Source: an uncultured Candidatus Peribacteria bacterium
GTDB taxonomy: Bacteria; Patescibacteriota; Gracilibacteria; UBA1369
DNA: 64,000 nucleotides
Direction of reading: 5' to 3'
NCBI GenBank assembly: GCA_964624115.1
Contig: CAZUXI010000006.1
Location: forward strand, 1,060-65,059
The number at the start of each line of letters is the position of its first letter. The first letter of the stretch is position 1. Shown here piece after piece: positions 12,538-32,800 of this stretch. The notes under the pieces are model-generated. The model did not search any database. It saw only the letters and a list, made by a program, of their open reading frames with translations, and had not been told where the DNA came from. Made by a program: the position numbers and the translations under genes.

Positions 12538-12538
12538 T

Positions 12539-18598: not shown

Positions 18599-19855
18599 AT
18601 GAAAAAAGAAGAAAAAAATCAAATGCCGTCGCGTGATGCAGGCAAAATTGGGGTAAGTAAGCTAGGTGTTGCTGCAATGGTTTTAAGCCTTACTCTTTTG
18701 ACAAATTTCGCTTTTGCTTCAATTGGTAGCACAAGTGTTTTAGTAGCCGCTGTTGAAACTCAGCAAACACAGCAGACCCAAATGGAAACTCAAATGACTC
18801 AACAAAGTCAAGAGACCCAGATGACTCAACAAACTCAGGAGACACAACAAACCCAAATGGAGACCCAGATGACTCAACAAACTCAGGAGACACAACAAAC
18901 CCAAATGGAAACCGAAGAAACCACCATGGAAGAACAAACAGAAACATCGCTTCCAGTGGTTGGATACTGTTCAGAATTGATGACGGCTCTTGGTAAAGTT
19001 GGTGTTGGCGATATGACGACCTATCAAACCCTTTGTCCAGAAGACAAACCGGTTGAAAACGTTTGCAGCAAATATGAAGAAATGAGTGATAAATATAATG
19101 CCGATCAAAAAGAAGCTTATGGTGACCTTTGTGTTAGTGTTGAAACCTATTCAAAAGAATCCACCTACTGTAAAGATCTTTGGGCAAATGTTCAAAAATA
19201 TACGAACAGCCAAGAAGGACAAGATTATGTTCTTGCGAAACAAAAATATACCCTCTACTGTGAAAAAATGATGCCAGTTATTGGCTTCGGTGATGCGGTT
19301 TTGGAAATGGGTGATGATACCGAAAACCCATTCAAAGATGTAAAACTTGAAACTCTTGAAGGAAAAGCGATTTTTGAGGTCTACCGCCGTGGTATTATTG
19401 CAGGTTATCCAGATGGAACTTTTGGCGGAGAAAAACCTGTTAACCGCGCTGAAGCGGCAAAATTCCTCCTCCTTGGTCGTTATGCTTCAGTCGAAGATAA
19501 AACATATAACAACACCTTCAAAGATGTTACCGGCTCTGAATGGTTTAAACGTTATGTGGTACGTGCAGCTGAACTCGGTGTGATTGCAGGTTATCCAGAT
19601 GGAACTTTTGTACCTGCACAAACTGTAAAAGTTGGTGAATTTACCAAAATGATTTCACTCGCTTTTGGTTTAAGCACTGACCTTCCATATGCTTATACTG
19701 ATGTAAAAACAACTGATTGGTACGCAAAATATGCTGGTGCTGCTGAGAAATACAAAATGTTCCCGAATTTCCCTGCAAAAATGCTCCAACCAGGAAAAGA
19801 ACTGACCCGAAATGAAGTTGCAGTTGCGATCTATCAAGTATTGGTAAACATGTAA
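18599..19855 (+). CDS. Secreted SLH-domain protein with a Gln/Thr/Met-rich tandem repeat
   Basis: Signal-like N-terminus, a TQQTQMETQMTQQ repeat, then SLH-like units (GYPDGTFGGEKPVNRAE, GYPDGTFVPAQTVKVGE). Confidence 0.75.
   Translation: MKKEEKNQMPSRDAGKIGVSKLGVAAMVLSLTLLTNFAFASIGSTSVLVAAVETQQTQQTQMETQMTQQSQETQMTQQTQETQQTQMETQMTQQTQETQQTQMETEETTMEEQTETSLPVVGYCSELMTALGKVGVGDMTTYQTLCPEDKPVENVCSKYEEMSDKYNADQKEAYGDLCVSVETYSKESTYCKDLWANVQKYTNSQEGQDYVLAKQKYTLYCEKMMPVIGFGDAVLEMGDDTENPFKDVKLETLEGKAIFEVYRRGIIAGYPDGTFGGEKPVNRAEAAKFLLLGRYASVEDKTYNNTFKDVTGSEWFKRYVVRAAELGVIAGYPDGTFVPAQTVKVGEFTKMISLAFGLSTDLPYAYTDVKTTDWYAKYAGAAEKYKMFPNFPAKMLQPGKELTRNEVAVAIYQVLVNM
18757..18910 (+). repeat. In-frame tandem repeat (48-nt unit)
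   Basis: 18815-18862 and 18863-18910 are near-identical (1 difference). More degenerate copies lie upstream. Confidence 0.85.
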
Positions 19856-19879: not shown

Positions 19880-19911
19880 AAGCCCTTCCTTTGTCGGAAG
19901 GGCTTTTTTTT
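19880..19911 (+). terminator. Intrinsic terminator
   Basis: A perfect 10-bp stem, AAGCCCTTCC/GGAAGGGCTT, with a 6-nt loop and a T-run. Confidence 0.85.
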
Positions 19912-19919
19912 GGTATAAT
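19911..19919 (+). promoter_or_regulatory. Candidate extended -10 promoter element (TGGTATAAT)
   Basis: TGnTATAAT sits 24 nt upstream of ATG 19943. Confidence 0.4.
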
Positions 19920-19942: not shown

Positions 19943-20974
19943 ATGAATCTCATCAAAAAATCCGTGATTGTGTTAAGCCTAATGGTTCTTGTGCTTTCCA
20001 TCAATGCCCATGCGGTTTTGGCACAAACACCCGCTCAGTCGAATCAGACAAAACAGGTACTTTTTCTTCCGGGGTCATCTCAGTACGGTAATCTTCCGGC
20101 GCCCGTTTCAGGTGGTAGTGCCCAAGCGCAATTTGCTCAACTTGCCTATGGTGTGGTGAATAATGTCCGTTATGTTTTAGGTGCGCTCGCCATTGCCATG
20201 ATCATCTATTCAGGAATTCGTATGGTAACTGGCTGGGGAAATGATGACGTTTACACAAAACAAAGAACAAATCTTTTATGGGCGATTATCGGCCTCGCCG
20301 TGGTTGGTCTGGCCGGCGAACTTTCTCGAATACTTTTTGTAAGTTGTGGTCCGGGTGGATACACGCCACCAGGACAAACTGCCTTTACCTGTGAAGGGAA
20401 TTTCTTAAGCAGTCCAAATAATATCGTTCGTGCGAGTACTCTGTTCAGTCAACGAACTCAAATTATTATCACTTTTATCAAATATTTTATTGGTGGGGTC
20501 GCGGTGCTTATGCTCGTACGTAACAGTTTCCGTATGGTAACCATGGGCGGATCTGAAGACAAAATTGCACTCGATAAAAAGAACATCACGTACAACATCA
20601 TCGGATTAATCCTCATTATCGTTGCCGATAATGTTATTAATCAAGTGGTCTATAAACTTGATTCCACCCGTTACCCTTCAACGGGCGGTCCTCAACCGGC
20701 AATTGATGCGGCCCGAGGGGTACAAGAGCTGGTTGGCTTTACAAATCTCGTGGTAAGTATCGTCGGACCAGTTGCAATTATTTCGCTCGTGATTGGTGGT
20801 GTGATGTATATGACTGCAGCGGGAAAAGAGGAAACCATGGAAAAAGCCAAACGTCTCATCATTGCTTCTATCGTCGGAATTATCATTATTTATGGTGCAT
20901 TTGCCATTATTTCTACTTTTATTGCCGGAAACTTTAGCGGGCTCGAAGTCCCAAGTGATGTCACGGCCCAATAA
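19943..20974 (+). CDS. Membrane protein built from three tandem TrbC/VirB2-like (T4SS-pilin-like) hairpin modules, paralog 1
   Basis: Signal peptide (..SINAHAVLA), then three copies of TM, a short charged loop (GWGNDD / MGGSEDK / AAGKEETMEKAK), and a second TM. Confidence 0.6.
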   Translation: MNLIKKSVIVLSLMVLVLSINAHAVLAQTPAQSNQTKQVLFLPGSSQYGNLPAPVSGGSAQAQFAQLAYGVVNNVRYVLGALAIAMIIYSGIRMVTGWGNDDVYTKQRTNLLWAIIGLAVVGLAGELSRILFVSCGPGGYTPPGQTAFTCEGNFLSSPNNIVRASTLFSQRTQIIITFIKYFIGGVAVLMLVRNSFRMVTMGGSEDKIALDKKNITYNIIGLILIIVADNVINQVVYKLDSTRYPSTGGPQPAIDAARGVQELVGFTNLVVSIVGPVAIISLVIGGVMYMTAAGKEETMEKAKRLIIASIVGIIIIYGAFAIISTFIAGNFSGLEVPSDVTAQ

Positions 20975-21016
20975 CATGGAAGCTCCAAAGAAAGCAGTTT
21001 TACGAAAAACGAACCT

Positions 21017-22060
21017 ATGACCCAAAAAGTTACCAACATCTTGAGATCAATGATAAGTGTACTGGCCATCAGTGTGGTTATGTTTCAACTGACTTCAACG
21101 GTGACTTGGACAAATGCCTTGAGCGTTCCCACGGTAAAAGCACAAGCGGCCACCACAGTTGGTTCGGGTCTTGATGCTATTCGAAAAAACACGGGGCTTT
21201 CCGATTTTGATAGTCAGGGAATCGGTCACAGTAACTCTTCCTACGAGCCCGGGGCTTCCAACATTACCAGTGTAATCCTCTATGTGGTTGATCTTGCCCG
21301 TTACTTCCTTGGAACCGTGGCGGTACTGGTGATAATCATTTCAGGGGTGCGTTTGGTAACCACCACCAAAAATGTCGAAGATGTGGCTGAAAAACAAAAA
21401 GAAAATATCAAATATGCAGCCATTGGTTTAGTGGTGATTTTTATCTCTGAGGTCCTCGTTCGCCAGGTGTTTTACGGTGAAGCGGGGGAGGTAGTGAGCA
21501 GTCAAGCCAGCGCACAATTGGCGGCAGAACGTGGAACGGAACAACTCAGAGGTGTCTACTTCTTTGCCCAAGTATTTATTGGAGCGGTTTCAATTTTAAT
21601 GATCATTATTTCAGGAGTCATGATGGTTGCAAGTGGTGGGAACGAAGACCGAATTAAGAAAGCAAAAGATCAAATCATCTGGGCTGTAGCAGGAATCGTT
21701 TTAATTGGTCTCTCCGAACTGGTTATTAAAGATATCGTTTTCCCAGATCAAGGAACCAGACTTTCGGATGTGAACCGTTTTAGTCAGTTGACGGTACAAC
21801 TCACTAACTTTATTTCAAGCTTTATGGCCACCATCGCCATTGCACTGTTTATGTATGGTGGTTTTCTCTACGTTACGGGGGGACAAAACGAAGATAATAT
21901 TGGGAAAGCAAAAAAAGTTTTTACTGGAGCCGCAATCGGTTTAATCATTGCCATGGCTGCTTTTGGTATCGTGAATACCGTTATCAAATTTGAACCCCTT
22001 CCTGAAAACCCTACCACAACTCAAGAGGTTGGGACCGAAGAAACAAGTTTTGGGGTGTAA
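21017..22060 (+). CDS. Membrane protein built from three tandem TrbC/VirB2-like hairpin modules, paralog 2
   Basis: Same architecture as the upstream gene. Loops are TTTKNVEDVAEKQK, ASGGNEDRIKKAK and TGGQNEDNIGKAK. The third module begins TNFIS..., as in the next gene. Confidence 0.6.
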   Translation: MTQKVTNILRSMISVLAISVVMFQLTSTVTWTNALSVPTVKAQAATTVGSGLDAIRKNTGLSDFDSQGIGHSNSSYEPGASNITSVILYVVDLARYFLGTVAVLVIIISGVRLVTTTKNVEDVAEKQKENIKYAAIGLVVIFISEVLVRQVFYGEAGEVVSSQASAQLAAERGTEQLRGVYFFAQVFIGAVSILMIIISGVMMVASGGNEDRIKKAKDQIIWAVAGIVLIGLSELVIKDIVFPDQGTRLSDVNRFSQLTVQLTNFISSFMATIAIALFMYGGFLYVTGGQNEDNIGKAKKVFTGAAIGLIIAMAAFGIVNTVIKFEPLPENPTTTQEVGTEETSFGV

Positions 22061-22114
22061 ATTCAAAAACTCAAGCATCAACCATCAAATAAATTATAAA
22101 TTCCAAGGTATTTA

Positions 22115-22123
22115 TGCTATAAT
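22115..22123 (+). promoter_or_regulatory. Candidate extended -10 promoter element (TGCTATAAT)
   Basis: TGnTATAAT sits 26 nt upstream of ATG 22149. Confidence 0.35.
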
Positions 22124-22148
22124 AGCAAGATAAATTGCACCCTTTTCC

Positions 22149-25100
22149 ATGTCCACACTCAACAAAAACCAAAAAATGTCGACCATTCAAAAGAAATTTA
22201 CCTCAGGGATTCTTGTGACCCTCCTAAGCTTTTTTACCGTTTTTTCACTGAATTTTCATGGGAATATTGCTCATGCCGCACTCAGTGATGTGTTGAAAGG
22301 AAATGAAACATTGGGAGATTGGGCTCAAGGGGCAGGTGAAGATACCGTTGACTGTTTATTTGGTGGTGATTGTGGAAGTGGTTCCAAAGCTTCCACCAGT
22401 TTCACCGATTTCAAAGGTGGCATGACCGCACCAAGCAAAGAAGGATACAGCGAAGGACTTACGGCTTCAGATAATGCTCGGGATTTTATTTTAAACGTCA
22501 CCAACTTTATTCTCGGATTCCTAGGACTCCTCGCCGTTCTTATCATTATTTACGGTGGTTTTCTTTACATGACCGCAAATGGTGAACAGGATAAAGCAGA
22601 AAAGGGAAAGAAAAATATTACCTACGCTCTCGTTGGTATCATTATTATTCTCAGTTCATTTGCTCTTGTTTCCACCATTCTTCGGGCACCTACCGGAACC
22701 GACGAAAAGAAAGGTGCCGCTGAAGAACAGGTGACCGGAAGTGGTGTTCAAAAGAGCTTTAACCGACTCGCACTCCGTCTCCAAACCATGGCGAACGACA
22801 TTGTCAGCCTCTACCTATTTGAAGTAGAGGTGGCAACCGATTTTGCAAAAATTTCCACCAGCATCGATACCGCTTTTAATGAAATGTCTGCCTGTGCAGA
22901 AAGTGTAAAAGATGAAGATGCTCACGAAACTATGTGTGGTGATAACTGGGGTGATGGACTCAAACAAAAACTCGATACCTTTAAAGCAAATATTGATCAG
23001 GCGATTTCGCTCCTCAATAATATTCAACAAAAAATACCGGGCACAAATCTGACCTCACTCTCTAAAAAGGGTGAAGTAAAAGATTTAGCTGATGCTCTCA
23101 ATAATTATTGGATCGCTGCTATTGGTCGTGCTGAAGCAAAAGCGGCCGATGTTGGTTGTGATGACAAAGTAAGTTCAGAATGTCATGCGAGTGAAAATTC
23201 AGAAGTGTTTGCGGCTTTCCTCAATATGAAAGGACCGGGGAATGAGTTCGTTGGCATTGAAATCAAAAATCAATTGAGTGATTTGCAAGGAAGTATTACT
23301 GACTATTTCAAAGACACCATCAATCTTAAAAAAGCAGAACTCAAAGAGATTTACGATCAAGTATCTCCAGTCACGAACATTGCTGACACACAATTTGAAG
23401 CACTCGTGACATTAGCAAATTTGAAGGCAGAAAGTGGAATTGCTGACGACTGGGATGCTGCTGAGGGTTCATTAAAAAATCTGGTCGTTGCTTTTGAAAC
23501 TTATGCCAAAGCCAAAGGTGATGCGATGAAAACCACCAAAGATTCATTGGAAACACAACTTGCTACGGTCATTACGCAACTTTCAGAACTCTATAAAGTT
23601 CTCAAAGACATCCAATTTGTCGATACCCAACTCACCGCAAGTGTTGTTGAAGGGAACGCCCCACTGGTTGTAAATTTCAGCGCTATTGGTTCGTTAGATC
23701 CAACCGGGAAAACAATCCAAAATAATCAAATCGAATGGGATTTGGATGGAAACGGAACTGCAGGAGAAGGGCTTTTGAATAAAACAGGGAGTGATAAGGT
23801 GTTCCTCAATTGTAATGAAGGTGATAAAGCTGCTGTTGTCACAAATCCAAATCCAAATCCTGCTCAACAACAACCAGCATCAAATATCGACAAACAAAAC
23901 GTCAGCTGTACCTACAAAGCTGCAGGAACTTACCGGGTAAAACTTTTAATTAAATCCACCGATGCAAAAATCGGTGACGGTATTTCCACCGTCATCATTC
24001 AAGTCAATCCACCACAAAATAAAATTAACCTCAAACTCCTTCCGGGGAACGACACTCCAATCGACATTATTCAGTACAACCAAGACGGGTTCCTCATTAC
24101 CGATAAAGATGAAGTGACCGTACGTGCTTCCACAGCACTTAATCCAGGTATCACATTTGACGCCACCGCAACCCGTTCCAAAAACGACCTCCTCACTACT
24201 GAAGCCTCCGACGGCGCGAAAGTAAAATGGGACTATGGTGATGGTTCAAGTACAGACGACAACAAAAAAATCCTTGATGCGATTGCCGGAAATCTCAAAA
24301 AGACACATAAATATGAAAAAGCCGGAACGTATAACGTAAGCGTTGAAGTTACCGATAAAAACCGCATCATTGACCGGAAACTCTTTACCCTCAACGTACA
24401 AAATATTGCCGCTCAATTAAGTGTCAACAGTACAAATATCAAAGTAAACAATGAAGTTCGGTTTGACGGTTCCAGTTCCGTGAGTGATGGCGGAGAAATT
24501 TCTGCCTGGACCTGGGCACTCAGCCTGGTCGACCCACAAACCGGTAATCTCACTGCTGTAAACGACTTTAAAGCGAGCGAATTTGAAAATCAGGAAGAGG
24601 TAACTTACAACTTCAAGACATCAGGAAAATATCGCATGATGCTGACCATCACTGATAATCTTGGTCAGACCGACTCCGCGTCTGAAGATATTCTGGTGAC
24701 ATCCGAACCCCCCTCCTCACAGTTTAAAGTTACAACTCCAAGCGAAAAACAACCGGGGACAGTACTGGTTGATGGTTCAAGAAGTTACGATCCTGACAAC
24801 GCCAAAGCTGATCTGGTCTACGAATGGGAAATAAACGGTCAAAAAGTAACATCTCAAACTACTTCTGGGGTCGACTGGAAAATCGTTGATCTCGCCGCAT
24901 TCAACGAAAAAACAAATCAGTTCAAAGTAAAATTCTCAAAACCCGGAACCCAAACGATCACCCTTACGACCATTGATCCGAATGGGTATGGAAATGGCGT
25001 ACCACAACCTGGAAAAACCGTCGAAAAAGATATTACCATTGATAATGTACTTGATATCGATTGGGGCACCACCGACGAACCAACTGCTCAACTCAAACTT

Positions 25101-27128
25101 GATGACGCTTCAGGGCAGTACATTGCACCACTCACCGTCAATATCGTAAGTGAAAACGCCACTGACTATGAAGTCGACTTCGGTGATGGCACTGATGTTC
25201 AGGGCGGTGTTATGGACAGTAGTAACACGCAACCGGTCACCCATAACTATAAAGCGCCCGGAAACTACCTCGTCCGTGCGACCGTTTTTGATGAAGAAGA
25301 TAATGATAATGAAATCACACGAAAAGTATATGTCTCAGGTGCGGACACACCATTGGCGGTAGCCGGTATAAAAGTGAATGGTGAAGATATCGTGAGTGAT
25401 GGAGTGAACAGCATTAAAGTGAATCGCAAAGATGTCGTAACTTTCTACGCTTCAAAATCAAAGAATGTGGACGGAACCGGAAGGAGATTGTTATACAGTT
25501 GGGATTACGGTGTTGGGAAAAGTACCAAAGAGTCATTCACCAACACTTATAAAGATCTGGGTACCTATGATATTTCACTCAAAGTGACGAACGAAGCCGA
25601 TCAGAGCAAAACTTCGACGAATGGATTCACCCTTGAAGTGGTAGGGGAGGCACCTGATCTAAAAACTCTTACCGCTGTCCCAACCGGCAGCAGCTTAACC
25701 ACCCCGGTAACTGTCAATCTCACCGCGGTTGGTGCTGAAGATAAAGATGGTCAAATCACCCGCTATCGTTGGTGGTACTACGACCCCAACTTCAACACGG
25801 AAGAATTGGGGGTACAAGTATCAAACTCACCCAATGCCAGTGTGACAATCGGAACCCGTGGTGCCCAAGACGAGAAAAAAACATACAAATTTGCCGTAGC
25901 GATCACGGACGACGAAAACAACACCGTGAGCAGTGAAGACATCCTCGATGAAAATACCATACCGGAACTTGAAGTCGTCAACGGTCCAAACTCAGCTCCA
26001 GTAGCCAAGTTCAACGTCGATCGAACCAACATTATGGTTGGTGAATCCGTGAATTTCACCAGTGCATCCAGTGATCCAGATGGCACCATCAAAGCTTATT
26101 TCTGGGATTTTGAAGGCAACGGATTTTCTGATAACTCCAACTCGGAAGGTCCAAACTTGAGCCACACCTTTAACACTCCGGCCCGTGACGGTATTAAAGT
26201 TCGTTTAAAAGTTCGTGATAACAACGAATCTGAAGCCGTTTCTGATCCCATTACGATTTACGTTGATAGTACTTCACAACCACCGATCGCCGCCTTTACG
26301 ACCACAATCAACGACAAAACCGTTCAGTTCCAGGACAAATCTACCGCTGACGAAGGTCTCACCATCAGCAAATGGGCTTGGGATTTTGACACCAGTAAAG
26401 ACTCAAACGGGGACGGAACCAAAGATAATGACCTCGAGAGTACCAACCAAAATCCTACCCATACCTACGAAAACTACAGCACCTACTTTGCCCAACTCAC
26501 CGTTACCGATGATGAAGGAAATTCAGCAAAAGTAAAAAACCTTTTCTTGATCAAAAATCCCGTGACCCCAAAACCTGCCGCTCCGACCACCCAGCAAACT
26601 CAACCAAAACCCGCCGCTCCAACGACACAACAAACCCAACCAAAACCGGCGACTCCACCCCTTGATGCCCGCTTGATCACTACTCCGGCCCCAAGTTACA
26701 GCGACGGAAAAATTCATCTCAAAGGTACAAGTGCGAAAGTTCTTCTGGATTTCAGTACCTCCACCGGAAAAATCACGAAATATATCATCGATAAAAATGC
26801 AAACTTTGACACAAACGGAAACGCAGTAAAAGATGACGATGAAGATTTTACCGCAACCAAACCGGGGAGCTGGGAAACCGATTATTTTTCAGAATACGGA
26901 AAAATACGAGTTCGCCTGACCGTGATTGATGAAACCGGAAAAAAAGATTTTGTTGAACGTGAAATCATCTTTGATGATGCCAAACCTGCTCCGAACGCTT
27001 CAGGACTTCAAGCCAATCTTCTGGGAACAGGCCCCGAGGGGGTGAACGATATTTTTGCAGTCATTGTCAGCATCTTTGGACTTGGTGTAATGTATACCAG
27101 CCTTCGAAAACTCAAAAATCAAAAATAA
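22149..27128 (+). CDS. Giant envelope protein (1659 aa): signal peptide, one pilin-like hairpin module, a helical region, about 10 PKD-like domains, and a C-terminal TM with a basic tail
   Basis: The N-terminal module TNFILGFLGLLAVLIIIYGGFLYMTANGEQDKAEKGKK...IIILSSFAL is homologous to module 3 of the two upstream genes. PKD signatures recur (W.(W/F/Y)D(F/Y)GDG ... Y...G.Y.V.L.V.D). The C-terminus reads GTGPEGVNDIFAVIVSIFGLGVMYTSLRKLKNQK. Confidence 0.8.
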   Translation: MSTLNKNQKMSTIQKKFTSGILVTLLSFFTVFSLNFHGNIAHAALSDVLKGNETLGDWAQGAGEDTVDCLFGGDCGSGSKASTSFTDFKGGMTAPSKEGYSEGLTASDNARDFILNVTNFILGFLGLLAVLIIIYGGFLYMTANGEQDKAEKGKKNITYALVGIIIILSSFALVSTILRAPTGTDEKKGAAEEQVTGSGVQKSFNRLALRLQTMANDIVSLYLFEVEVATDFAKISTSIDTAFNEMSACAESVKDEDAHETMCGDNWGDGLKQKLDTFKANIDQAISLLNNIQQKIPGTNLTSLSKKGEVKDLADALNNYWIAAIGRAEAKAADVGCDDKVSSECHASENSEVFAAFLNMKGPGNEFVGIEIKNQLSDLQGSITDYFKDTINLKKAELKEIYDQVSPVTNIADTQFEALVTLANLKAESGIADDWDAAEGSLKNLVVAFETYAKAKGDAMKTTKDSLETQLATVITQLSELYKVLKDIQFVDTQLTASVVEGNAPLVVNFSAIGSLDPTGKTIQNNQIEWDLDGNGTAGEGLLNKTGSDKVFLNCNEGDKAAVVTNPNPNPAQQQPASNIDKQNVSCTYKAAGTYRVKLLIKSTDAKIGDGISTVIIQVNPPQNKINLKLLPGNDTPIDIIQYNQDGFLITDKDEVTVRASTALNPGITFDATATRSKNDLLTTEASDGAKVKWDYGDGSSTDDNKKILDAIAGNLKKTHKYEKAGTYNVSVEVTDKNRIIDRKLFTLNVQNIAAQLSVNSTNIKVNNEVRFDGSSSVSDGGEISAWTWALSLVDPQTGNLTAVNDFKASEFENQEEVTYNFKTSGKYRMMLTITDNLGQTDSASEDILVTSEPPSSQFKVTTPSEKQPGTVLVDGSRSYDPDNAKADLVYEWEINGQKVTSQTTSGVDWKIVDLAAFNEKTNQFKVKFSKPGTQTITLTTIDPNGYGNGVPQPGKTVEKDITIDNVLDIDWGTTDEPTAQLKLDDASGQYIAPLTVNIVSENATDYEVDFGDGTDVQGGVMDSSNTQPVTHNYKAPGNYLVRATVFDEEDNDNEITRKVYVSGADTPLAVAGIKVNGEDIVSDGVNSIKVNRKDVVTFYASKSKNVDGTGRRLLYSWDYGVGKSTKESFTNTYKDLGTYDISLKVTNEADQSKTSTNGFTLEVVGEAPDLKTLTAVPTGSSLTTPVTVNLTAVGAEDKDGQITRYRWWYYDPNFNTEELGVQVSNSPNASVTIGTRGAQDEKKTYKFAVAITDDENNTVSSEDILDENTIPELEVVNGPNSAPVAKFNVDRTNIMVGESVNFTSASSDPDGTIKAYFWDFEGNGFSDNSNSEGPNLSHTFNTPARDGIKVRLKVRDNNESEAVSDPITIYVDSTSQPPIAAFTTTINDKTVQFQDKSTADEGLTISKWAWDFDTSKDSNGDGTKDNDLESTNQNPTHTYENYSTYFAQLTVTDDEGNSAKVKNLFLIKNPVTPKPAAPTTQQTQPKPAAPTTQQTQPKPATPPLDARLITTPAPSYSDGKIHLKGTSAKVLLDFSTSTGKITKYIIDKNANFDTNGNAVKDDDEDFTATKPGSWETDYFSEYGKIRVRLTVIDETGKKDFVEREIIFDDAKPAPNASGLQANLLGTGPEGVNDIFAVIVSIFGLGVMYTSLRKLKNQK
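26568..26659 (+). repeat. In-frame 36-nt tandem repeat (PKPAAPTTQQTQ, about 2.5 copies)
   Basis: Units at 26568-26603 and 26604-26639, plus a partial third unit. Confidence 0.8.
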
Positions 27129-27137
27129 ATTGCCACT

Positions 27138-29582
27138 ATGATGGAACAAAATAATCCACAAAACCCACTGAATTCAGGTGCTGCTTCAGTCCCTCCAGCA
27201 CCAGCGCCAACCCCCGCGCCACAAAGTTCACCTGCAACCCCGGTGAATCCAACTTTTGGCGTTCCTTTAAGTGCTGCTCAACAACCACCTGCCACGCCAG
27301 TCCCTCCAGCACCCATTCAAGCGACCTCAGCACAGCCAGCACCTCAGCCAATCAATAACGTACCAACGCCTGCACCGGTTCCAACCCCAGCTGTTCCCCA
27401 AAATCAACCGATTCAGACACAAGCTCAATCCCTTAATTCTTCTTCTCAATCTTCCCCTTTGCCCGCGCCACGCCCCAACATGAATCAACCCAACCCCAAC
27501 CAACGCCCTGGCCAGGTAATGCGTCCGGGGACAATTCGTAAGCCCATGAATCCGCGTCGACTCATTATCGGATGTTTAGGTTGCAGTGGACTCGCTATTT
27601 TTCTCTTTGTCCTGCTGGTTTTTATCTTTGTGGCCCAAACCAGTGCCACCGGTGAAAATCCAATCGCCCGCTCACTCGGTGTGAATACCGCCAGCTTCAT
27701 CAATACGCTCATCCTGCTCGTAAACCTGATTTTTGGTGCCTTTACCATCGGACTTTTTCTTGCCTCAACCGCAGGTCTTTTCCGGATATTCCTGGCGAGA
27801 AAAGATGACCAGGTTGCCAGAAAAAATGGTATGACTCTCGCCGGAGTATCACTCTTATTAATGCTCGTTGTAGTATTTATCTGGGTAGGAACCTACTTTT
27901 TCTTAAGCTCAAAACGGGTTGCCGTACCGAAAACCACCACCTCAGCCATCGTAACGGTACCTGAAAGTACTCTCGGCCTCACGGCTCCGATTGAAGTGAA
28001 ATTCAGTTCAGAAAATCTTCCCATCAATACCAGAACCTATGACGTTCTTTCGTACCTCTGGAACTTCGGTGACGGTGTAACCTCTACGGTTGCTTCCCCT
28101 TCCAACATGTACGAAGACAAAGGTTCCAACAATGGAAGATACGACGTCACACTCTTGGTGACCAAACGAAATAAACAAACCAACGAAGAGAGTGTGGATA
28201 CCTATACCACCGTCGTCACAATTGCGAATGTGGAGATTAACGCGAGCTTTTCGGTCCAGCCAGAAAATGGTCCCGCCCCTCTTGATGTCAGTTTTGACGC
28301 CTCATCTTCAACAGCGCCCGCCGGACAAATTGTTACCTACGAATGGGATTTTAATAACGATAACGTTTTTAACGACGCGACCGGAGTCACCACTACCCAC
28401 ACCTTTGAACAAGTGGGAAAGTATACGGTAGGACTTCGCGTAACTGACAACACCGGACAGTATAAAATTAAAACCCTCGAAATTAACGTGACCGATGCGG
28501 AAATTCCAGTAGCAGTTATCAATGTCCCAACCACCGATGGGAAATACTACACCGGTTCTTCATATAACTTCGATGCTTCAGCTTCCACATCACCCAATGG
28601 CACGGTACAACTCTACGAATGGGATTTTGGTGATGGAACCGCCAAGGCGAACACCAGAACCGCCACGCACGTCTTCCGAAACCCAGGTGAATATAAAGTT
28701 CTCCTCACGGTGACTGATGACAATAAGGTGAGTTCACAAAGTACCAAAACGTTGAAAGTGGAAAATAAAGAAGCTGCACCGCTGGCCGCAATTACCACCA
28801 TTCCCGCGCCTGAAAAAAACGCCAATTTTATTGCCGGAACCGCTCCGTTTGAGGTGACTTTTGATGGAGCAAAAAGTCAAGACAGCGATAACAATATCGT
28901 TGATTACAAATGGGATTTTGATGGCGATGGCAAAGAAGATGCCGCAGGGAAACAGGTCACCTATATCTATAAGATTTCTGGAAGTTTTAACGCCACCTTA
29001 ACCGTTATTGACGCCCTTGGCAATGAAGGCCAAACCACATTCCCAATTAAGGTTGGATCACAACCGTTACAGGCACGTATAACTGCAGAACCATTTGAAG
29101 GAGTGGCTCCACTGACGGTAACATTTGATGCTGGGGGGTCCTCATATCCAAACGGCCAAATTGTTTCTTATGAGTGGGATTTTGGTGATGGGAGTCCAAA
29201 ACAGGTAAATACCTCAAAATTGGTCTATAAATACACCCAAATTGGAAGTTTTACCGCAAAAGTAACCGCCATTGGCTCTGATAACAGTCGGTCAACCGCA
29301 GAAATACCGGTGAACGTTCGTCCTGTTCCTCTCGCGGCTTGTTTTGAAGTCACCACCGAGCAAGGTCCGGCACCACTGACCGTTGAATTCGACCCCCGTT
29401 GTTCCACAGGTTCCGTAGCAAAATACAGCTGGGATTTTGGTAATAATTCCACCTCACGCACCCGAAAACCAACGCAAACTTTTGACAAACCCGGTTCATA
29501 TCAGGTAACTCTAGAAGTGTCTGACAATCAAAACGTCATTGACACTTTTACCAAAACCATCCTCGTAACCGGTAACATCTAA
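27138..29582 (+). CDS. Membrane protein (814 aa): Pro/Gln-rich N-terminus, a cluster of TM helices, and six PKD-like domains
   Basis: N-terminal 130 aa are P/A/Q-rich. TM segments include GCSGLAIFLFVLLVFIFV. There are six Y.WDFG(D/N).. + G.Y.V.L.V.D units. Confidence 0.8.
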   Translation: MMEQNNPQNPLNSGAASVPPAPAPTPAPQSSPATPVNPTFGVPLSAAQQPPATPVPPAPIQATSAQPAPQPINNVPTPAPVPTPAVPQNQPIQTQAQSLNSSSQSSPLPAPRPNMNQPNPNQRPGQVMRPGTIRKPMNPRRLIIGCLGCSGLAIFLFVLLVFIFVAQTSATGENPIARSLGVNTASFINTLILLVNLIFGAFTIGLFLASTAGLFRIFLARKDDQVARKNGMTLAGVSLLLMLVVVFIWVGTYFFLSSKRVAVPKTTTSAIVTVPESTLGLTAPIEVKFSSENLPINTRTYDVLSYLWNFGDGVTSTVASPSNMYEDKGSNNGRYDVTLLVTKRNKQTNEESVDTYTTVVTIANVEINASFSVQPENGPAPLDVSFDASSSTAPAGQIVTYEWDFNNDNVFNDATGVTTTHTFEQVGKYTVGLRVTDNTGQYKIKTLEINVTDAEIPVAVINVPTTDGKYYTGSSYNFDASASTSPNGTVQLYEWDFGDGTAKANTRTATHVFRNPGEYKVLLTVTDDNKVSSQSTKTLKVENKEAAPLAAITTIPAPEKNANFIAGTAPFEVTFDGAKSQDSDNNIVDYKWDFDGDGKEDAAGKQVTYIYKISGSFNATLTVIDALGNEGQTTFPIKVGSQPLQARITAEPFEGVAPLTVTFDAGGSSYPNGQIVSYEWDFGDGSPKQVNTSKLVYKYTQIGSFTAKVTAIGSDNSRSTAEIPVNVRPVPLAACFEVTTEQGPAPLTVEFDPRCSTGSVAKYSWDFGNNSTSRTRKPTQTFDKPGSYQVTLEVSDNQNVIDTFTKTILVTGNI

Positions 29583-29586
29583 AAAT

Positions 29587-29688
29587 ATGAAGAAAAAACA
29601 ACAATTTGCCCTAAAATTCATCAGTGTTCTGGCTCTCATTGGTCTTCTCATGGGAATGATACTCCCGTTTGTGAACGTCCCATACTAA
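29587..29688 (+). CDS. Micro-ORF encoding a 33-aa single-TM peptide (MKKKQQFALKFISVLALIGLLMGMILPFVNVPY)
   Basis: ATG lies 5 nt after the upstream stop. A basic N-terminus is followed by a hydrophobic helix, and a terminator begins 15 nt downstream. Not in the supplied ORF track because it is too short. Confidence 0.45.
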   Translation: MKKKQQFALKFISVLALIGLLMGMILPFVNVPY

Positions 29689-29702
29689 AAGAGTTTCCCC
29701 AA

Positions 29703-29733
29703 AGCCCCTTCTAACCGAAGGGGCTTTTTTTTT
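29703..29733 (+). terminator. Intrinsic terminator ending the 19943-29688 gene string
   Basis: 8-bp stem AGCCCCTT/AAGGGGCT, a 7-nt loop and a T9 run. Confidence 0.85.
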
Positions 29734-29784
29734 GCAAAAAACTAGGTGATCTTTGCCAGAGCAAACGGTGGAGCTTCCAATTCT
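29732..29784 (+). repeat. Bipartite intergenic repeat copy (TTGCAAAAA, 28 nt, TGGAGCTTCCAATTCT)
   Basis: Sits between the terminator and the promoter-like site of the next gene. Confidence 0.6.
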
Positions 29785-29805: not shown

Positions 29806-29834
29806 TTGACCAAAACCTCAATTTTTGATAAAAT
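29806..29834 (+). promoter_or_regulatory. Candidate sigma70-type promoter (TTGACC, 17 nt, TAAAAT)
   Basis: -35 at 29806-29811 and -10 at 29829-29834, 46 nt before ATG 29880. Confidence 0.45.
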
Positions 29835-29879: not shown

Positions 29880-32800
29880 ATGCTCGACAACACTCCAAAT
29901 CTTGGTCAGGGAACACCTGAAAACCCTGAACAAAAGCCAGAAATGAACCAAATGCCAGATCCCATGCCACCGTCAGTTCCGCCAGTTGGTACACCAGGTC
30001 CGGAAAAACCCGTTGACCTTGTTGGAAATCCATCAGATGATAAAAAGAAAAAAACTCTTCTTATTGCGGGAGCTGTTGTTGCCATCCTGGGTGTCGTGGG
30101 AGCAGCGGTGTATTTTGGGCAAGGGATGTTGTTTAAAGGGTCAGTGGAAGAAACGTACAAATTAGCTGCACCTGAACTTTGTCCGGATGGAATGTATTTT
30201 GATGAAACAGCAACAAATTCAGGTGTAATTACAGAACCTGCACGAACCGCCTCTGGAAATCTTTTAGAGCTCGGCCTTGGTGTTGCGAATGCACAGTCAA
30301 AAGAGGATGTTGTCACAACCTTCATTGATGAACCAGTTCAAGGAAACACAAATGGTTATCAATCACGTCCACCAACATGTGATCCTGCCAAAGGTGAATC
30401 ATTAAATTTTGAACAAACCGCCTGCGTGGATTGTACTGAAGTTATAAAAATTTACGCAAGCACCACCAATCCACTTGAAAAATCTTACTACGCTGCTCGA
30501 AACAAAATGTGCGTGACCCAAGGAATTACCGGCGGCGGAACTACTCCTGAGAGTGGGACCGGTACACCAACCGGTGATTTCCCTCCTGGTGGTGGGCAGA
30601 CAACTGGTACTCCAGACACAACCGGTACCGGAACAGGAACGTCAACTACGCCCAAAACACCTGTTACTTGTCCAAAAGATTCCGTCAAAGTGAACGTGGG
30701 GGAAGTGAAATCCATGGATACGTTCTTAACGAGCTTAAAGAACGTTACTTCAGATGAAAATCACGTAACCAAAGCAAAAACAGTTGTTTCTCTCTGGGAT
30801 GAACTGAGCAGTCTACCGCAGGACGACCAAGGAATCTGTTTGGACTGTTTATGGTACCAAAAAATTAAAAACTACATGATCACCCTTACGGATGACTTTG
30901 TAGCCCAATATCCTGAACACAAAACGTTATGGGATGCTGCAAAAGCAGATGTTAACGGGAAACTGACCGAAATTAAAAAGAGTCTTGATGACGCCGGGAT
31001 CGCATGTGATACCACCCCAGGGACTGAAATTCCACCAACCCGTGGGGGATCATGTGTACGAATTGACTATTGTGATCCAGACCTCGTTGCAAAACTCTTA
31101 AAAGATCCGGCAAAATATCACCTCAGTCCAAAAACACTCGAACTTCTCAAAACCGAACCAAGAAAATGTGAACGTGTGACCCAGGAAGTTGAATGTAAAG
31201 AGGGAACCGTTCAAATTGATCGAAAAGATCCTGCGTTTAACCTCACCACCGAAGAAAAAGCAACCATTTCGGCAGGTACCGCCGTTCTCAAAAAATATGA
31301 AAGTGACGTCAAAATGGAGGCACTGGTAGAAATTCGTTCCTACGCAAGTGACACCAGTTCAAAAAATGCTGATCAGGTGATGTCAGAAATACAAACGCTC
31401 ACCACATTAAATTCAAACGTATCGGCAGCGCGGACAACAACTGCATTACGGACAGATGCTGTCTCAAACCTGAGAAACGTAGAAACAACACAATGTCTTA
31501 ACTGTGAAGAACTTGATGAACTCTACAAAAAATTTGTAGATCTCTATACTCAACTTCTCGATAAATTTGAAGCGAATAAATCGGTTACCTCTGATCCAGC
31601 AGAATTGAAAAAAATCACCGATGCGGAAACAACCATCAAATCGTACATGGATCGGGTGACGAAAAAAATTGATGCCCTCAAAAAAGAAAATCGTTGTCCC
31701 GTTGAAATTGTTCAATGTACGAACGGGGTTGATCGGTTTCCAACCGACGGCTTTAAAACTATGAGTGATGCGCTCAAACCACTCGATCAACAAGTCCGAA
31801 ATATTGTAGCAAACTACGATGGGCCAAATTCAGAAAGTTCTCAAGTAATCAGAAAAGACGTTCTTATCGAGAAAAATGCTCCTGAGTCATCACTCAATAC
31901 AGCACGCATCAGAACCGATTACGCAGCGGGAATTCAGATGAAAATTTGTGATTGTGATACGCTTGCTCTATTTAAGGAACGTTATGAAAACGAATTGGCG
32001 CTTATGGAGTACGTCTTATCCCAGTTGAAAGCTCAAAACGCTGATGCGGCCATCATTGCCCAAGCTCAAACTGCTTTCGATAAAACGAAAGCCGCGTACG
32101 AAACTTGGAAAGCAACGGCAATAAAAAAACTCAACTGTCCTGAACGTGTGACTGAAATTCCTGTCTGTAAAGACACGACCTATAAATTAACGCCTGAGTT
32201 GAGTTCGGCAGGACAAAAACTTGGAGAAAAATTTGATTCGGTTCCTACTGCAGCTGAGTATCAAAAAGCCAAAACTTCTTGGGATGCGATTGGAAAGAGT
32301 GAAATTATGAAAAAATACACGACTGGCGAGAGTACCAAAACAGGTATGAATGCCCTCTGTCTTAACTGTGAAAGCCTGAAAGAGTTAGAGGCTTACCTCA
32401 ATGCCCAACTGGATAAAGTAAAATCAGAATTACCGGCAAACGACACCGTCATCAGTCCTGCACTTGCTGATTTTAAGTCAGAACTTCAAAAATTCTTTAC
32501 CCAGGCGAAGCGTGATCTCAAGTGTACAACCACGACGACCGTGGTTGAACGTGTTCCTGAACGAACACCGCTCGACACCTGTACCGACATCAAACAACAA
32601 GTGGTCAATAAACTCAACGGTCCTCTTGGTTCAACACGTGATGAAATCAAATCTTTCACTGATTTGGTAACTTCATACTTTGAGAACGACTGTGATAAAC
32701 TGGTTCGTTGTGAAGAAAAAGTAGCGAAAGTTGACTACTATCAAAAGCTTGCCGAAGCCGTAGACCAAACCACTTGGGATTCAGCAACGAAAACAGCAGT

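What the first reader, a model, noticed from the sequence alone, without database searches (positions are those of the whole stretch)
19943..29688. Envelope locus built around T4SS-pilin-like hairpin modules: two triple-module paralogs, a pilin-PKD giant, a PKD membrane protein and a micro-ORF
**Module.** A module of about 55 aa recurs seven times across three consecutive genes. Each copy is a TM helix, a short Lys/Asp/Glu-rich loop containing G-G-x-E-D-like and KAK-like motifs, and a second TM helix.
- 19943-20974 carries three copies behind a signal peptide.
- 21017-22060 carries three copies behind a signal peptide.
- 22149-27128 carries one copy at the N-terminus of the 1659-aa protein.
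- The third module of the second paralog (21017-22060) and the giant's module both start TNF(I)...; the first paralog's third module starts TNLVV. All three run through (Y/I)GG(F/V)(L/M)Y(V/M)T(A/G).

**Resemblance.** The module looks like TrbC/VirB2-type conjugative pilins and the pilin-like family I recall from candidate-phyla bacteria.

**What is unusual.**
- Triplication within one polypeptide.
- Direct fusion of one module to about 10 PKD domains that end in a C-terminal TM anchor.
- No VirB4/VirD4/VirB6-type gene anywhere in the 64 kb.

**Topology.** It is self-consistent: cleaved signal peptide, K-rich loops inside, PKD array outside, basic tail inside.

**Operon.** The string continues with an 814-aa protein carrying 6 PKD domains and a 33-aa single-TM peptide, then ends at a strong terminator (29703-29733). 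That implies one transcription unit.

**Hypothesis.** This could be a fibre or attachment apparatus in which pilin-like hairpins form a membrane base and PKD arrays the adhesive shaft.
Basis: partly seen in the sequence, partly recalled or inferred. Interest (0 to 1): 0.8.

Follow-up and report, generated by a model that had tools for sequence, protein, structure and literature searches.

The report
Pilin-hairpin and PKD surface operon
A five-gene operon, found at the same chromosomal spot in every Peribacteria genome examined, encodes membrane proteins built from repeated conjugative-pilin-type hairpins plus long PKD-domain arrays; it is probably an undescribed cell-surface attachment structure of these uncultured ultrasmall bacteria.

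Summary
Three consecutive genes carry seven copies (3+3+1) of a ~68-aa two-helix module that passes Pfam's cutoff for T4SS_pilin (PF18895). A profile of this module type aligns end to end with real VirB2 pilins (HHalign 93.8%). The third protein adds 10 PKD domains and a C-terminal anchor. A fourth has 3 TM helices plus 6 PKD domains. A 33-aa TM peptide follows, and promoter-like and terminator-like sites bracket the five genes.

The cassette is a lineage-wide core locus, not a one-off. It lies divergent from secE-nusG in 43 species-level Peribacteria/Peregrinibacteria genomes. Variant cassettes with 4-, 6-, 7- and 8-module "poly-pilins", a 6-PKD partner and the micropeptide occur in other lineages.

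No VirB4, VirB6 or VirD4 was found in the window, and no candidate ATPase lies within 10 kb in the loci screened. One distant relative has the poly-pilin pair 5-10 kb from a VirB3-like gene.

Function is inferred. My best reading is a surface contact apparatus built on VirB2-family hairpins, probably working with a dispersed type IV secretion system. A secretion-system-independent membrane complex remains a strong rival.

Patescibacterial VirB2-like pilin gene arrays are already published. I found no description of this architecture, so I rate it a new variant of a known kind.

The parts
19880..19919 (+). Upstream boundary: terminator-like hairpin of the preceding SLH gene (19880-19905), overlapped by a promoter-like site (TTGTCG-17-TATAAT with TG extension, 19891-19919), 24 nt before the pilA start codon
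19943..20974 (+). pilA: 343-aa triple-module pilin-family protein with an N-terminal signal-peptide-like segment. It forms its own orthologous group, 30-57% identical in relatives
20132..20341 (+). pilA hairpin module 1 (aa 64-133)
20444..20653 (+). pilA hairpin module 2 (aa 168-237). The linker before it contains two Cys residues (SCGPGG...FTCEG)
20720..20926 (+). pilA hairpin module 3 (aa 260-328)
21017..22060 (+). pilB: 347-aa triple-module pilin-family protein and a second orthologous group (31-63% identical in relatives, only about 30% identical to pilA). The linkers between modules are conserved (FFGEQGEV..AAERG and FPxQG)
21263..21475 (+). pilB hairpin module 1 (aa 83-153)
21536..21742 (+). 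pilB hairpin module 2 (aa 174-242)
21779..21988 (+). pilB hairpin module 3 (aa 255-324)
22149..27128 (+). Giant: 1659-aa protein made of a signal-peptide-like N-terminus, one pilin module, an unassigned region, 10 PKD domains and a C-terminal TM anchor
22476..22685 (+). Giant's hairpin module (aa 110-179). It is the most canonical of the seven: 115 bits against a profile built from this segment plus 57 standalone CPR pilins, so part of the score is circular. The standalone pilins are up to 72% identical to it over the module
22716..23618 (+). Giant aa ~190-490: region between the hairpin and the PKD array with no family match above threshold
23622..26981 (+). Giant's array of 10 PKD-like domains (aa 492-1611)
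27039..27128 (+). Giant's C-terminal TM helix (aa 1631-1649) and basic tail. It is preceded by LQANLL, which corresponds to the GAN(I/L)F motif of orthologues
27138..29582 (+). K: 814-aa protein with a Pro-rich N-terminus, about 3 TM helices (aa 147-250) and six PKD domains (aa 268-814). Orthologues have six PKD domains in nearly all Peribacteria loci and in all three loci of two other lineages examined
29587..29688 (+). Micro-ORF: 33-aa peptide with a basic N-terminus, one TM helix and a conserved Pro near the C-terminus. It is conserved directly after K in at least 21 of 35 loci, including two other lineages
29701..29737 (+). Terminator-like hairpin (11 bp stem, 6 GC pairs) plus T-run that closes the unit

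Best explanation
This is a conserved five-gene operon for a cell-surface contact or adhesion apparatus built on VirB2-family (T4SS-pilin-type) helical hairpins.

**Shown.**
- pilA and pilB each carry three hairpin modules and the giant carries one.
- The module type is homologous to genuine VirB2 pilins.
- The giant adds 10 PKD domains. K adds about 3 TM helices and 6 PKD domains. A TM micropeptide follows.
- The set is co-transcribed by all sequence signals.
- It is inherited vertically as a core locus of Peribacteria.

**Inferred.**
- After Sec export and signal-peptide cleavage, every hairpin sits in the cytoplasmic membrane like a pilin before polymerisation. The termini and the conserved inter-module linkers face outside and the K-rich loops face inside.
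- The 3+3+1 hairpins of pilA, pilB and the giant pack together. K and the micropeptide are membrane partners.
- The PKD arrays of the giant and K are thereby displayed outward as the binding surface.
- The hairpin assembly most likely works as the pilin/adhesin arm of the lineage's dispersed type IV secretion-like machinery. VirB4, VirB3/PrgI and TrsD-type genes would be encoded elsewhere.
- In that reading the giant supplies the adhesin function that no one has found for patescibacterial T4SSs, and its near-canonical module lets it join assemblies of the standalone pilins.
For: **Family membership and homology.**
- PF18895 passes its cutoff in all three proteins.
- NF045849, a pilin-like conjugal transfer protein model, passes in pilB and the giant.
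- HHalign of the module profile against Agrobacterium VirB2 plus six TrbC/VirB2 proteins flanked by VirB1 and VirB3 gives 93.8%, E 1.7e-7, over 96 columns running from the AxAQ cleavage site to the C-terminus. The control against ATP synthase subunit c gives 0.3%.
- AlphaFold predicts three helical hairpins in pilB and one in the giant's module.

**Conservation in Peribacteria.**
- 43 species-representative loci were found.
- 40 of 43 have two triple-module genes.
- Of the 28 loci with enough downstream sequence, 26 have a giant with one module and 9-11 PKD domains, and 27 have a K-type protein with six PKD domains.
- The cassette is always divergent from secE-nusG.

**Conservation of partners in other lineages.** K, the micro-ORF and pilin-module proteins also co-occur in two other lineages in different genomic contexts.

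**Hints of co-function of pilA and pilB.** An 8-module single protein stands where the pilA+pilB pair would be.

**Link to a T4SS.**
- VirB2-like pilins lie near virB4 in 1,135 Patescibacteria assemblies, and VirB4 was found in 2,417 of 3,035 (PMC12102498).
- T4SS genes are scattered in Gracilibacteria.
- In Southlakia the pilins are essential (PMC10633639).
- No PrgB-like adhesin is known for these systems.
- A pilA-like/pilB-like pair lies 5-10 kb from PrgI (40 bits) and two standalone pilins in L058.
- The giant's module is closest to the standalone pilins of the same lineage.
Against: - No T4SS gene was detected in the window. No Walker-A ORF of 350 aa or more, other than PKD proteins, lies in any of the 48 Peribacteria-type loci. 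The precomputed Pfam tables of the six loci of other lineages and the three standalone-pilin loci list no VirB4, VirB6 or VirD4. In total these are 57 loci from several lineages.
- I could not show that any Peribacteria genome encodes VirB4.
- The L058 linkage is one locus, and unrelated genes lie between the elements.
- The giant is anchored at both ends in most lineages, and K is polytopic. That fits a fixed membrane complex better than an extruded pilus.
- Extracting a 6-16-helix poly-pilin from the membrane has no precedent.
- Fold searches give only generic hairpins.
- The window's proteins fall just short of the TrbC/VirB2 Pfam cutoff: 26.6 and 24.7 bits against 27.9.
- No member of PF18895 has, to my knowledge, been shown experimentally to form a filament.
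Confidence: 0.4

Rival explanations
1. A T4SS-independent, static envelope complex. VirB2-derived hairpins have been co-opted as a membrane-embedded ring or bundle, comparable to the multiplied c-subunit hairpins of A/V-ATPase rotors. This base anchors PKD fibres from the giant and K. No ATPase is involved and nothing is extruded.
For: - No ATPase or other T4SS gene lies in the window or in the 48 Peribacteria-type loci screened for Walker A. The Pfam tables of the other-lineage and standalone-pilin loci list no VirB4, VirB6 or VirD4.
- All five products are integral membrane proteins.
- The giant has a C-terminal TM anchor in most lineages.
- The ecto-linkers between modules are strongly conserved, with invariant F152, G157 and A169, and F242, P243 and G246 at least 90% conserved.
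- The position next to secE-nusG is housekeeping-like in all 43 species.
- Tandem fusion of hairpins is what ring-forming membrane subunits do. That last point rests on established knowledge of A/V-ATPase c subunits and was not tested here.
Against: - The number of modules per cassette varies between lineages: 7, 10, and at least 12. That sits badly with a ring of fixed stoichiometry.
- One subclade's giant lacks the C-terminal anchor.
- Elsewhere the family is tied to T4SS clusters (PMC12102498), and in L058 the pair lies near PrgI.
Confidence: 0.3
2. A channel or conduit component rather than an adhesin anchor. The hairpin proteins line a trans-envelope pore for uptake or exchange of material with a host or the environment. 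VirB2-type subunits are needed for substrate transfer even in T4SSs that make no pilus. In this reading the PKD proteins dock the pore to a target.
For: [quoted passage not shown]
- NF045849 models a pilin-like conjugal-transfer protein of Mycoplasma ICEs. By my own knowledge, not tested here, those are wall-less monoderms with no known pilus. The model passes its cutoff in pilB and the giant.
- The charged G-x-E-E/D...KAKK loops are conserved.
Against: - No substrate-handling component such as an ATPase or coupling protein is nearby.
- Nothing in the sequences indicates a pore.
- The structure models give no information on oligomers.
Confidence: 0.12
3. The hairpins are only membrane anchors. 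The homology to pilins is real, but the modules do not assemble with each other. The operon is then simply a set of co-expressed surface PKD proteins plus polytopic membrane proteins of unrelated role.
For: - Foldseek sees only generic helical hairpins.
- Other single-module fusions to Ig-like domains exist without any cassette, for example P0123 with Big_5, which has no partners nearby.
Against: - pilA and pilB have no ectodomain to anchor, yet both are kept as separate orthologous groups in 40 of 43 genomes.
- Their linkers are conserved.
- An 8-module fused form and the fixed co-occurrence with K and the micropeptide across lineages argue for a joint assembly.
Confidence: 0.1
4. pilA and pilB are pilin polyproteins. 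They would be cut in the external linkers into three ordinary ~70-100-aa pilins each, and these would polymerise like normal T4SS pilins.
For: - The second helix of each module has the orientation of an internal signal peptide. This follows from the topology inferred.
- Classical VirB2 and TrbC are heavily processed (established knowledge).
Against: - No conserved A-x-A-type cleavage motif follows the second helices. Instead the linkers carry conserved F(F/P)xxQG(E/S) and AAERG motifs.
- Standalone pilin genes exist in the same lineage, so a polyprotein route is not needed.
Confidence: 0.05

Closest known systems
VirB2-like pilin genes and pilin gene arrays of Patescibacteria (Pfam PF18895; Southlakia epibionticum T4SS pilins; Quinonero-Coronel et al. 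2025, PMC12102498; Wang et al. 2023, PMC10633639)
   Same: The hairpin module belongs to the same Pfam family and passes its cutoff. The bacterial group is the same. Several divergent pilin-type units are encoded side by side, no relaxase is present, and the context is chromosomal and non-mobile.
   Different: - Published arrays are 2-11 separate small genes, often next to virB4.
- Here the units are fused inside polypeptides (3+3), and one is fused to about 1,450 aa of ectodomain.
- The fixed partners are a TM-6xPKD protein and a micropeptide.
- No T4SS gene was detected in the flanks (up to 10 kb each side) of any Peribacteria locus.
- That paper never mentions PKD (0 occurrences), and in the parts I read it does not describe multi-module proteins.
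VirB2 / TrbC / TraA conjugative pilins of diderm T4SSs (Agrobacterium T-pilus, F-pilus)
   Same: There is a signal peptide ending in A-x-A-Q, two hydrophobic helices joined by a short loop, and profile-profile homology over the whole pilin (93.8%).
   Different: - Classical pilins are single modules of about 70-120 aa and are encoded beside VirB1, VirB3 and VirB4.
- The window's proteins miss the PF04956 cutoff narrowly.
- They show no sequence match to solved pilin structures and no tblastn match in 72,556 plasmids.
Amplified pilin paralogues of Bartonella Trw (trwL/trwJ) and Anaplasma VirB2 families
   Same: VirB2-type units are multiplied and diversified in a system used for contact with another cell rather than for conjugation.
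   Different: In those systems amplification is by tandem gene copies. The copies are not intragenic repeats and are not fused to adhesin domains. This rests on the literature as cited in PMC12102498 and was not tested here.
Mbov_0395-family pilin-like conjugal transfer protein of Mycoplasma ICEs (NCBIfam NF045849)
   Same: It is a hairpin protein of a monoderm T4SS. The model's cutoff of 40 bits is passed by pilB (45.4) and the giant (41.1).
   Different: The model is an equivalog for an ~80-aa single-hairpin ICE protein. Here the match is one domain within much larger chromosomal proteins, so they are not equivalent.
Multiplied c/K-subunit hairpins of A- and V-type ATPase rotor rings
   Same: This is an analogy only: helical TM hairpins are fused in tandem within one polypeptide and pack into a membrane assembly.
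   Different: There is no homology (HHalign 0.3%), no ion-binding motif and no ATPase genes.
Pam pili of CPR bacteria (Troman et al. 2026 preprint, 10.64898/2026.03.03.709456)
   Same: Both are CPR-specific surface appendage systems with Ig-like domains.
   Different: Pam pilins are Ig-fold, donor-strand-exchange subunits assembled with chaperone/usher-like factors. The only link found here is a 47.8-bit hit to PamR, whose cutoff is 300 bits. That is generic similarity between Ig-like and PKD domains.

Membership tests
Pfam PF18895 T4SS_pilin (CPR VirB2-like pilin family) | HMM score at or above the gathering cutoff (26.6 bits) | tested here: met
   pilA scores 88.6 bits (3 stretches), pilB 90.8 (3 stretches) and the giant 43.2 (1 stretch).
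Pfam PF18895 T4SS_pilin (CPR VirB2-like pilin family) | Typical member is a small single-module protein (~120-140 aa) | tested here: not met
   The window's proteins are 343, 347 and 1659 aa with 3, 3 and 1 modules. The closest single-module relatives are 109-165 aa.
TrbC/VirB2 conjugative pilins (Pfam PF04956) | HMM score at or above the gathering cutoff (27.9 bits) | tested here: not met
   pilA scores 26.6 bits and the giant 24.7 bits, just below the cutoff. Many orthologues carry a precomputed PF04956 hit. The L058 pilB-like protein scores 28.1.
TrbC/VirB2 conjugative pilins (Pfam PF04956) | Homology to an experimentally established pilin across the whole mature protein | tested here: met
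   HHalign of A2 (the giant's module plus standalone CPR pilins) against A3 (Agrobacterium VirB2, verified at 100% identity, plus 6 TrbC/VirB2 proteins flanked by VirB1 and VirB3) gives 93.8%, E 1.7e-7, 96 columns. The control against ATP synthase c gives 0.3%. The triple-module profile A1 against A3 is weak (4.6%) but aligns its third module in register.
TrbC/VirB2 conjugative pilins (Pfam PF04956) | Fold: hairpin of two long helices matching solved pilin structures | tested here: inconclusive
   AlphaFold predicts hairpins with pLDDT 72-74. Foldseek against the PDB finds nothing with E<1. The Aeropyrum conjugative pilus 8dfu is only rank 12 among generic hairpins.
Type IV secretion system (as a gene system) | VirB4-family ATPase encoded with the pilin genes | tested here: not met
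   The larger window ORFs scanned give no Pfam or NCBIfam hit, and the unassigned ORFs have no Walker A motif. None was found in the flanks (up to 10 kb each side) of the 48 Peribacteria-type loci.
Type IV secretion system (as a gene system) | VirB4, VirB3 or TrsD present elsewhere in the same genome | not testable with these tools
   Whole Peribacteria chromosomes could not be read. The only indirect support is that T4SS genes are scattered in Gracilibacteria (PMC12102498) and that PrgI lies near a pilA/pilB-like pair in L058.
Type IV secretion system (as a gene system) | Formation of an extracellular pilus, or a requirement of the pilin for transfer | not testable with these tools
   This needs cryo-ET, genetics or proteomics.
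PKD domain (Pfam PF18911 / PF00801) | HMM score above the cutoff, in repeated copies | tested here: met
   The giant scores 204.6 bits and K 285.8 bits for PKD_4. An iterated profile finds 10 and 6 domains.
NCBIfam NF045849 (Mycoplasma ICE pilin-like conjugal transfer protein, equivalog) | Score at or above 40 bits and equivalent full-length architecture (~80 aa) | tested here: not met
   The score passes in pilB (45.4) and the giant (41.1), but the match is a single domain of much longer proteins.
CPR Pam pilus system (NF058578 PamR) | Score at or above 300 bits | tested here: not met
   The scores are 47.8 and 20.8 bits.
Sortase-anchored surface proteins (LPXTG) | LPXTG motif before a C-terminal TM helix and basic tail | tested here: not met
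   The TM helix and basic tail are present, but the preceding motif is LQANLLGTGPEG in the window and GAN(I/L)F in orthologues, not LPXTG.

The most novel reading that the evidence does not exclude
VirB2-type pilin hairpins have been turned into a new kind of envelope organelle. Covalently concatenated pilins (3 to 8 per chain) would form a membrane base or short stalk that carries giant PKD fibres. It would be assembled without any type IV secretion ATPase and would be universal in Peribacteria and related lineages. That would make it an appendage class distinct from T4SS pili, type IV pili, sortase pili, chaperone-usher pili and Pam pili.
Probability: 0.3. Interest if true: 0.8.

Novelty: new variant of a known kind. 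Interest (0 to 1): 0.6.

Why it matters
Patescibacteria (CPR) make up a large share of bacterial diversity and are thought to live attached to other cells. How they make contact is largely unknown outside Saccharibacteria.

Their T4SS is essential in the one species tested. Unusually for monoderms, it comes with VirB2-like pilins, and no adhesin has been identified for it.

This locus offers three things:
- a candidate adhesin, physically fused to a pilin module;
- evidence that pilin modules are routinely concatenated within single chains, which constrains any model of how such "pilins" assemble;
- a cassette conserved across a whole class that can be used as a marker and as a target for cryo-ET, proteomics and structure prediction.

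If the apparatus turns out to be independent of VirB4, it would be a new use of the VirB2 fold.

Tried and rejected
- **Genome scan with the single pilB protein.** It found no confirmed relative. The repeat with an alignment worked.
- **Homologue search with the giant's first 536 aa.** The word index saturated and only 3 hits came back. A 110-aa module query worked instead.
- **Foldseek of both AlphaFold models against the PDB.** Nothing scored with E<1. Helical hairpins are too generic, so the fold test is inconclusive.
- **Profile searches of A1 and A2 against PDB sequences.** They returned only chance matches to GPCRs and rhodopsins.
- **tblastn of pilB against 72,556 plasmids.** No match.
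- **HHalign of A2 against a single VirB2 sequence.** This gave only 2%. It needed a VirB2 alignment to reach 93.8%.
- **PamR hit.** Rejected as generic similarity between Ig-like and PKD domains (47.8 bits against a 300-bit cutoff).
- **Hidden VirB4 or VirB6 among the five unassigned ORFs at 55294-63599.** None has a Walker A motif and none has more than one TM.
- **VirB4 status of Peribacteria from the T4SS paper's supplement.** The stored table is cut and holds no Peribacteria or Peregrinibacteria rows. The 2016 Peribacteria genome paper mentions T2SS, type IV pili, sortase and an S-layer, but no T4SS.
- **Taxon names for the other lineages.** The cluster look-up returned none.
- **GC-rich stretch at 12-14 kb.** It is not an rRNA gene.
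- **Polyprotein processing.** I considered it and rate it unlikely because no conserved cleavage motif is present.

Full report
**1.

The five ORFs lie on the + strand exactly as described: 19943-20974 (343 aa, called pilA here), 21017-22060 (347 aa, pilB), 22149-27128 (1659 aa, the giant), 27138-29582 (814 aa, K) and 29587-29688 (33 aa).

Pfam's T4SS_pilin model (PF18895, cutoff 26.6 bits) scores 88.6 bits with three matched stretches in pilA, 90.8 bits with three in pilB, and 43.2 bits with one in the giant. A module HMM I built from the seven copies places them at pilA aa 64-133, 168-237 and 260-328; pilB aa 83-153, 174-242 and 255-324; giant aa 110-179. It finds no further copy anywhere in the window. 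The copies are 20-41% identical to each other.

An iterated PKD profile counts 10 PKD-like domains in the giant (aa 492-1611) and 6 in K (aa 268-814). Hydropathy gives an N-terminal hydrophobic segment plus six TM segments in each paralog. In the giant it gives an N-terminal segment, the hairpin and a C-terminal TM helix (aa 1631-1649) followed by SLRKLKNQK. K has about three TM helices and the micro-ORF has one.

Gene gaps are 42, 88, 9 and 4 nt. A terminator-like hairpin (19880-19905) and a promoter-like site (19891-19919) precede pilA. A strong terminator-like hairpin (29701-29727 plus a T-run) follows the micro-ORF. Base composition across the locus is like the rest of the window.

**2. 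No secretion-system machinery in the window**

Pfam on the larger (>=110 aa) ORFs of the 64 kb that were scanned, and NCBIfam on the unassigned ones, give no VirB4, VirB6, VirD4, VirB3/PrgI or relaxase. The unassigned ORFs have no Walker A motif and at most one TM helix. The neighbours are housekeeping genes. On the minus strand, just upstream, lie secE-nusG-(225-aa unknown)-rplK-(DUF5671)-rplA. An SLH-domain gene sits between secE and pilA.

**3. The module is a real VirB2 relative**

- The window's proteins fall just short of the TrbC/VirB2 Pfam cutoff: 26.6 and 24.7 bits against 27.9. They pass NCBIfam NF045849, a pilin-like conjugal transfer protein of Mycoplasma ICEs, in pilB (45.4) and the giant (41.1) against a cutoff of 40.
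- A search with the giant's module returned 117 proteins. Nearly all are standalone 109-165-aa PF18895 pilins, up to 72% identical over the module.
- I aligned 57 of them with the giant's module (A2) and compared that profile with Agrobacterium VirB2 plus six TrbC/VirB2 proteins, each flanked by VirB1 and VirB3 genes on MPF_T plasmids (A3). My recalled VirB2 sequence was verified at 100% identity to annotated virB2 genes.
- HHalign gives 93.8% probability, E 1.7e-7, over 96 columns from the A-x-A-Q signal-peptidase site to the C-terminus.
- The same profile against ATP synthase subunit c, an unrelated TM hairpin, gives 0.3%. The match is therefore not a composition artefact.
- AlphaFold predicts three helical hairpins in pilB (mean pLDDT 73.5, pTM 0.47) and one in the giant's module (pLDDT 71.8).
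- Foldseek finds nothing significant, only generic hairpins. PDB sequence-profile searches are also empty. The fold neither adds to nor detracts from the case.
- Against the A2 profile the giant's module scores 115 bits, although that profile contains the giant's own segment, so part of this score is circular. The third modules of pilB and pilA score 67 and 55, and the other four score 39-45. The giant carries the most canonical pilin unit.

**4. It is a lineage-wide core locus**

- pilB has 169 database relatives. The best 120 are 41-61% identical, mostly 290-400 aa long, and all carry PF18895. The named ones come from Peregrinibacteria, Gracilibacteria or Altimarinota.
- A scan of GTDB species representatives with an alignment of this family found 43 loci. 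Most are titled Peribacteria, Peregrinibacteria or Gracilibacteria, a few carry only generic labels, and five sit in MAGs titled Nitrospirota or Alphaproteobacteria, presumably mis-binned. Four of the loci lie on closed chromosomes.
- In every locus long enough to show it, the order is folD-tmk-dut ... rplA-DUF5671-rplK-x-nusG-secE on one strand and pilA-pilB-giant-K on the other.
- 40 of 43 loci have two triple-module genes. The other three are cut by contig ends.
- Of the 28 loci with at least 8 kb downstream, 26 have a giant with one module and 9-11 PKD domains, and 27 have a K-type protein with six PKD domains. The exceptions look like frameshifted assemblies.
- pilA and pilB are separate orthologous groups. 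Each genome has one of each, and they are only 22-33% identical to each other.
- The linkers between modules are strongly conserved, with FFGEQGEV..AAERG and FPxQG motifs. In pilA one linker contains two cysteines, which fits an extracytoplasmic location.
- The micro-ORF is a real gene. A 27-37-aa peptide with a basic N-terminus, one TM helix and a conserved Pro follows K in at least 21 of 35 loci.
- The SLH gene between secE and pilA is peculiar to the window.

**5. The theme extends beyond Peribacteria**

- A profile search of 1.84 billion cluster representatives gives 47,535 hits at E<=1e-3 and 355 at E<=1e-30. Many are 450-900 aa long with 2-6 matched stretches.
- L049/L050 carry an 8-module protein, a 155-aa pilin, a 383-aa pilin-PKD protein, a 718-aa 6-PKD protein and a micro-ORF, next to recO and ftsX.
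- L052/L053 carry two 4-module proteins, two single-module proteins, a 6-PKD K orthologue (33% identical, including the TM region) and a micro-ORF, next to a sigma-70 gene.
- L054 carries two 6-module proteins that are readable only with UGA=Gly.
- L051 carries a 7-module protein.
- Multi-module "poly-pilins" are therefore common. K plus the micropeptide are fixed partners of pilin-module proteins across lineages.
- No candidate ATPase lies in any of the 48 Peribacteria-type loci. The precomputed Pfam tables of the other loci list no VirB4, VirB6 or VirD4.

**6. Relation to a type IV secretion system**

Published work puts VirB4 in 2,417 of 3,035 Patescibacteria assemblies. VirB2-like pilins lie near virB4 in 1,135 assemblies, and there are arrays of 2-11 separate pilin genes. 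T4SS genes are scattered in the class Gracilibacteria, and no PrgB-like adhesin has been found (PMC12102498). In Southlakia the T4SS and its pilins are essential (PMC10633639; PMC12857230).

Standalone pilins of Peregrinibacteria-type genomes sit alone among housekeeping genes. In one more distant genome (L058), a pilA-like and a pilB-like gene lie 5-10 kb from PrgI/VirB3-like (40 bits), a "TraC-like" gene and two standalone pilins.

I could not read whole Peribacteria chromosomes, so whether they encode VirB4 remains untested. The 2016 Peribacteria genome paper lists T2SS, type IV pili, sortase and an S-layer, but no T4SS.

**7. Interpretation**

Shown:
- the architecture;
- family membership and homology to VirB2;
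- the operon signals;
- clade-wide synteny;
- conserved partners;
- lack of nearby T4SS genes.

Inferred:
- the topology, with termini and linkers outside and K-rich loops inside;
- co-assembly of the 3+3+1 hairpins;
- outward display of the PKD arrays;
- an adhesive role.

I commit to a surface contact apparatus built on VirB2-family hairpins, most likely the pilin/adhesin arm of a dispersed T4SS-like machinery (0.40). A T4SS-independent static membrane complex is the main rival (0.30). Lesser rivals are a conduit role (0.12), mere anchoring (0.10) and polyprotein processing (0.05).

Two observations argue against a ring of fixed stoichiometry. The module number per cassette varies (7, 10, at least 12), and one subclade's giant lacks the C-terminal anchor. 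Three others argue against a classical extruded pilus: the giant is anchored at both ends, K is polytopic, and no ATPase is linked.

**8. Novelty**

VirB2-like pilins and pilin gene arrays in Patescibacteria are published, and NCBI already labels some of these proteins "pilin". My library searches did not find any description of intragenic poly-pilins, the pilin-PKD giant, the 6-PKD partner with its micropeptide, or the fixed position beside secE-nusG. The T4SS survey never mentions PKD. I therefore rate it a new variant of a known kind, with interest 0.6.

Noticed in passing
window 15834-17408 (- strand): Two extra genes sit inside the normally invariant secE-nusG-rplK-rplA cluster. One is a 225-aa ORF with no family match, between nusG and rplK. 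The other is a DUF5671 gene between rplK and rplA. Both insertions are kept in nearly all 43 Peribacteria loci.
   Followed up: partly
window 27000-27128 and 34190-34307; giant orthologues in L001-L048: Most giant orthologues end with a conserved GAN(I/L)F motif 12-15 aa before a TM helix and basic tail. One subclade (L028, L031, L034-L036, L041, L042) lacks the whole anchor. In the window both the giant (GTGPEG + TM + RKLKNQK) and the downstream 1475-aa protein (TPTGPE + TM + KK-rich tail) end in a similar way. This may be a C-terminal sorting signal that is not LPXTG.
   Followed up: partly
window 18599-19855 (+): A gene for an SLH-domain protein with TQQTQ/METQ repeats, carrying its own terminator, is inserted between secE and pilA. 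It is absent from that position in all relatives examined. A second SLH protein with FlgD-Ig domains lies at 214-2154.
   Followed up: partly
window 55294-63599 (- strand): Five consecutive ORFs (824, 137, 671, 116 and 980 aa) have no Pfam or NCBIfam match, no Walker A motif and at most one TM helix. This is an unassigned gene block.
   Followed up: partly
window 29880-34307 (+): A 1475-aa protein with an N-terminal TM helix, a C-terminal TM helix and no family match follows the operon under its own promoter-like site (29806-29834). It has no blastp counterpart downstream of the cassette in relatives.
   Followed up: partly
window 12000-14400: GC content is 0.535 here against about 0.42 elsewhere. 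There is no rRNA or other Rfam match. The stretch contains a 528-aa ORF (12766-14352) with no family match, and overlapping long ORFs on both strands at 11220-12317.
   Followed up: partly
L058 6100-17810 (GCA_974487895.1, 744-kb contig): A pilA-like (315 aa) and pilB-like (338 aa) pair occurs here without a giant or K. It lies 5-10 kb from PrgI/VirB3-like (PF12666, 40 bits), a 'TraC-like' gene and two standalone pilins.
   Followed up: yes
L054 84-3799 (Logan SRR7968363): Two adjacent six-module poly-pilin genes are broken by in-frame TGA under the standard code and read through with UGA=Gly (code 25). The family therefore extends into recoded lineages.
   Followed up: partly
L055 6591-8327 (P0123): A 578-aa protein fuses an N-terminal pilin module to Big_5 Ig-like domains in a 'Patescibacteria group' MAG, with no cassette partners nearby. 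Fusions of pilin modules to Ig-like domains therefore occur outside the cassette.
   Followed up: partly
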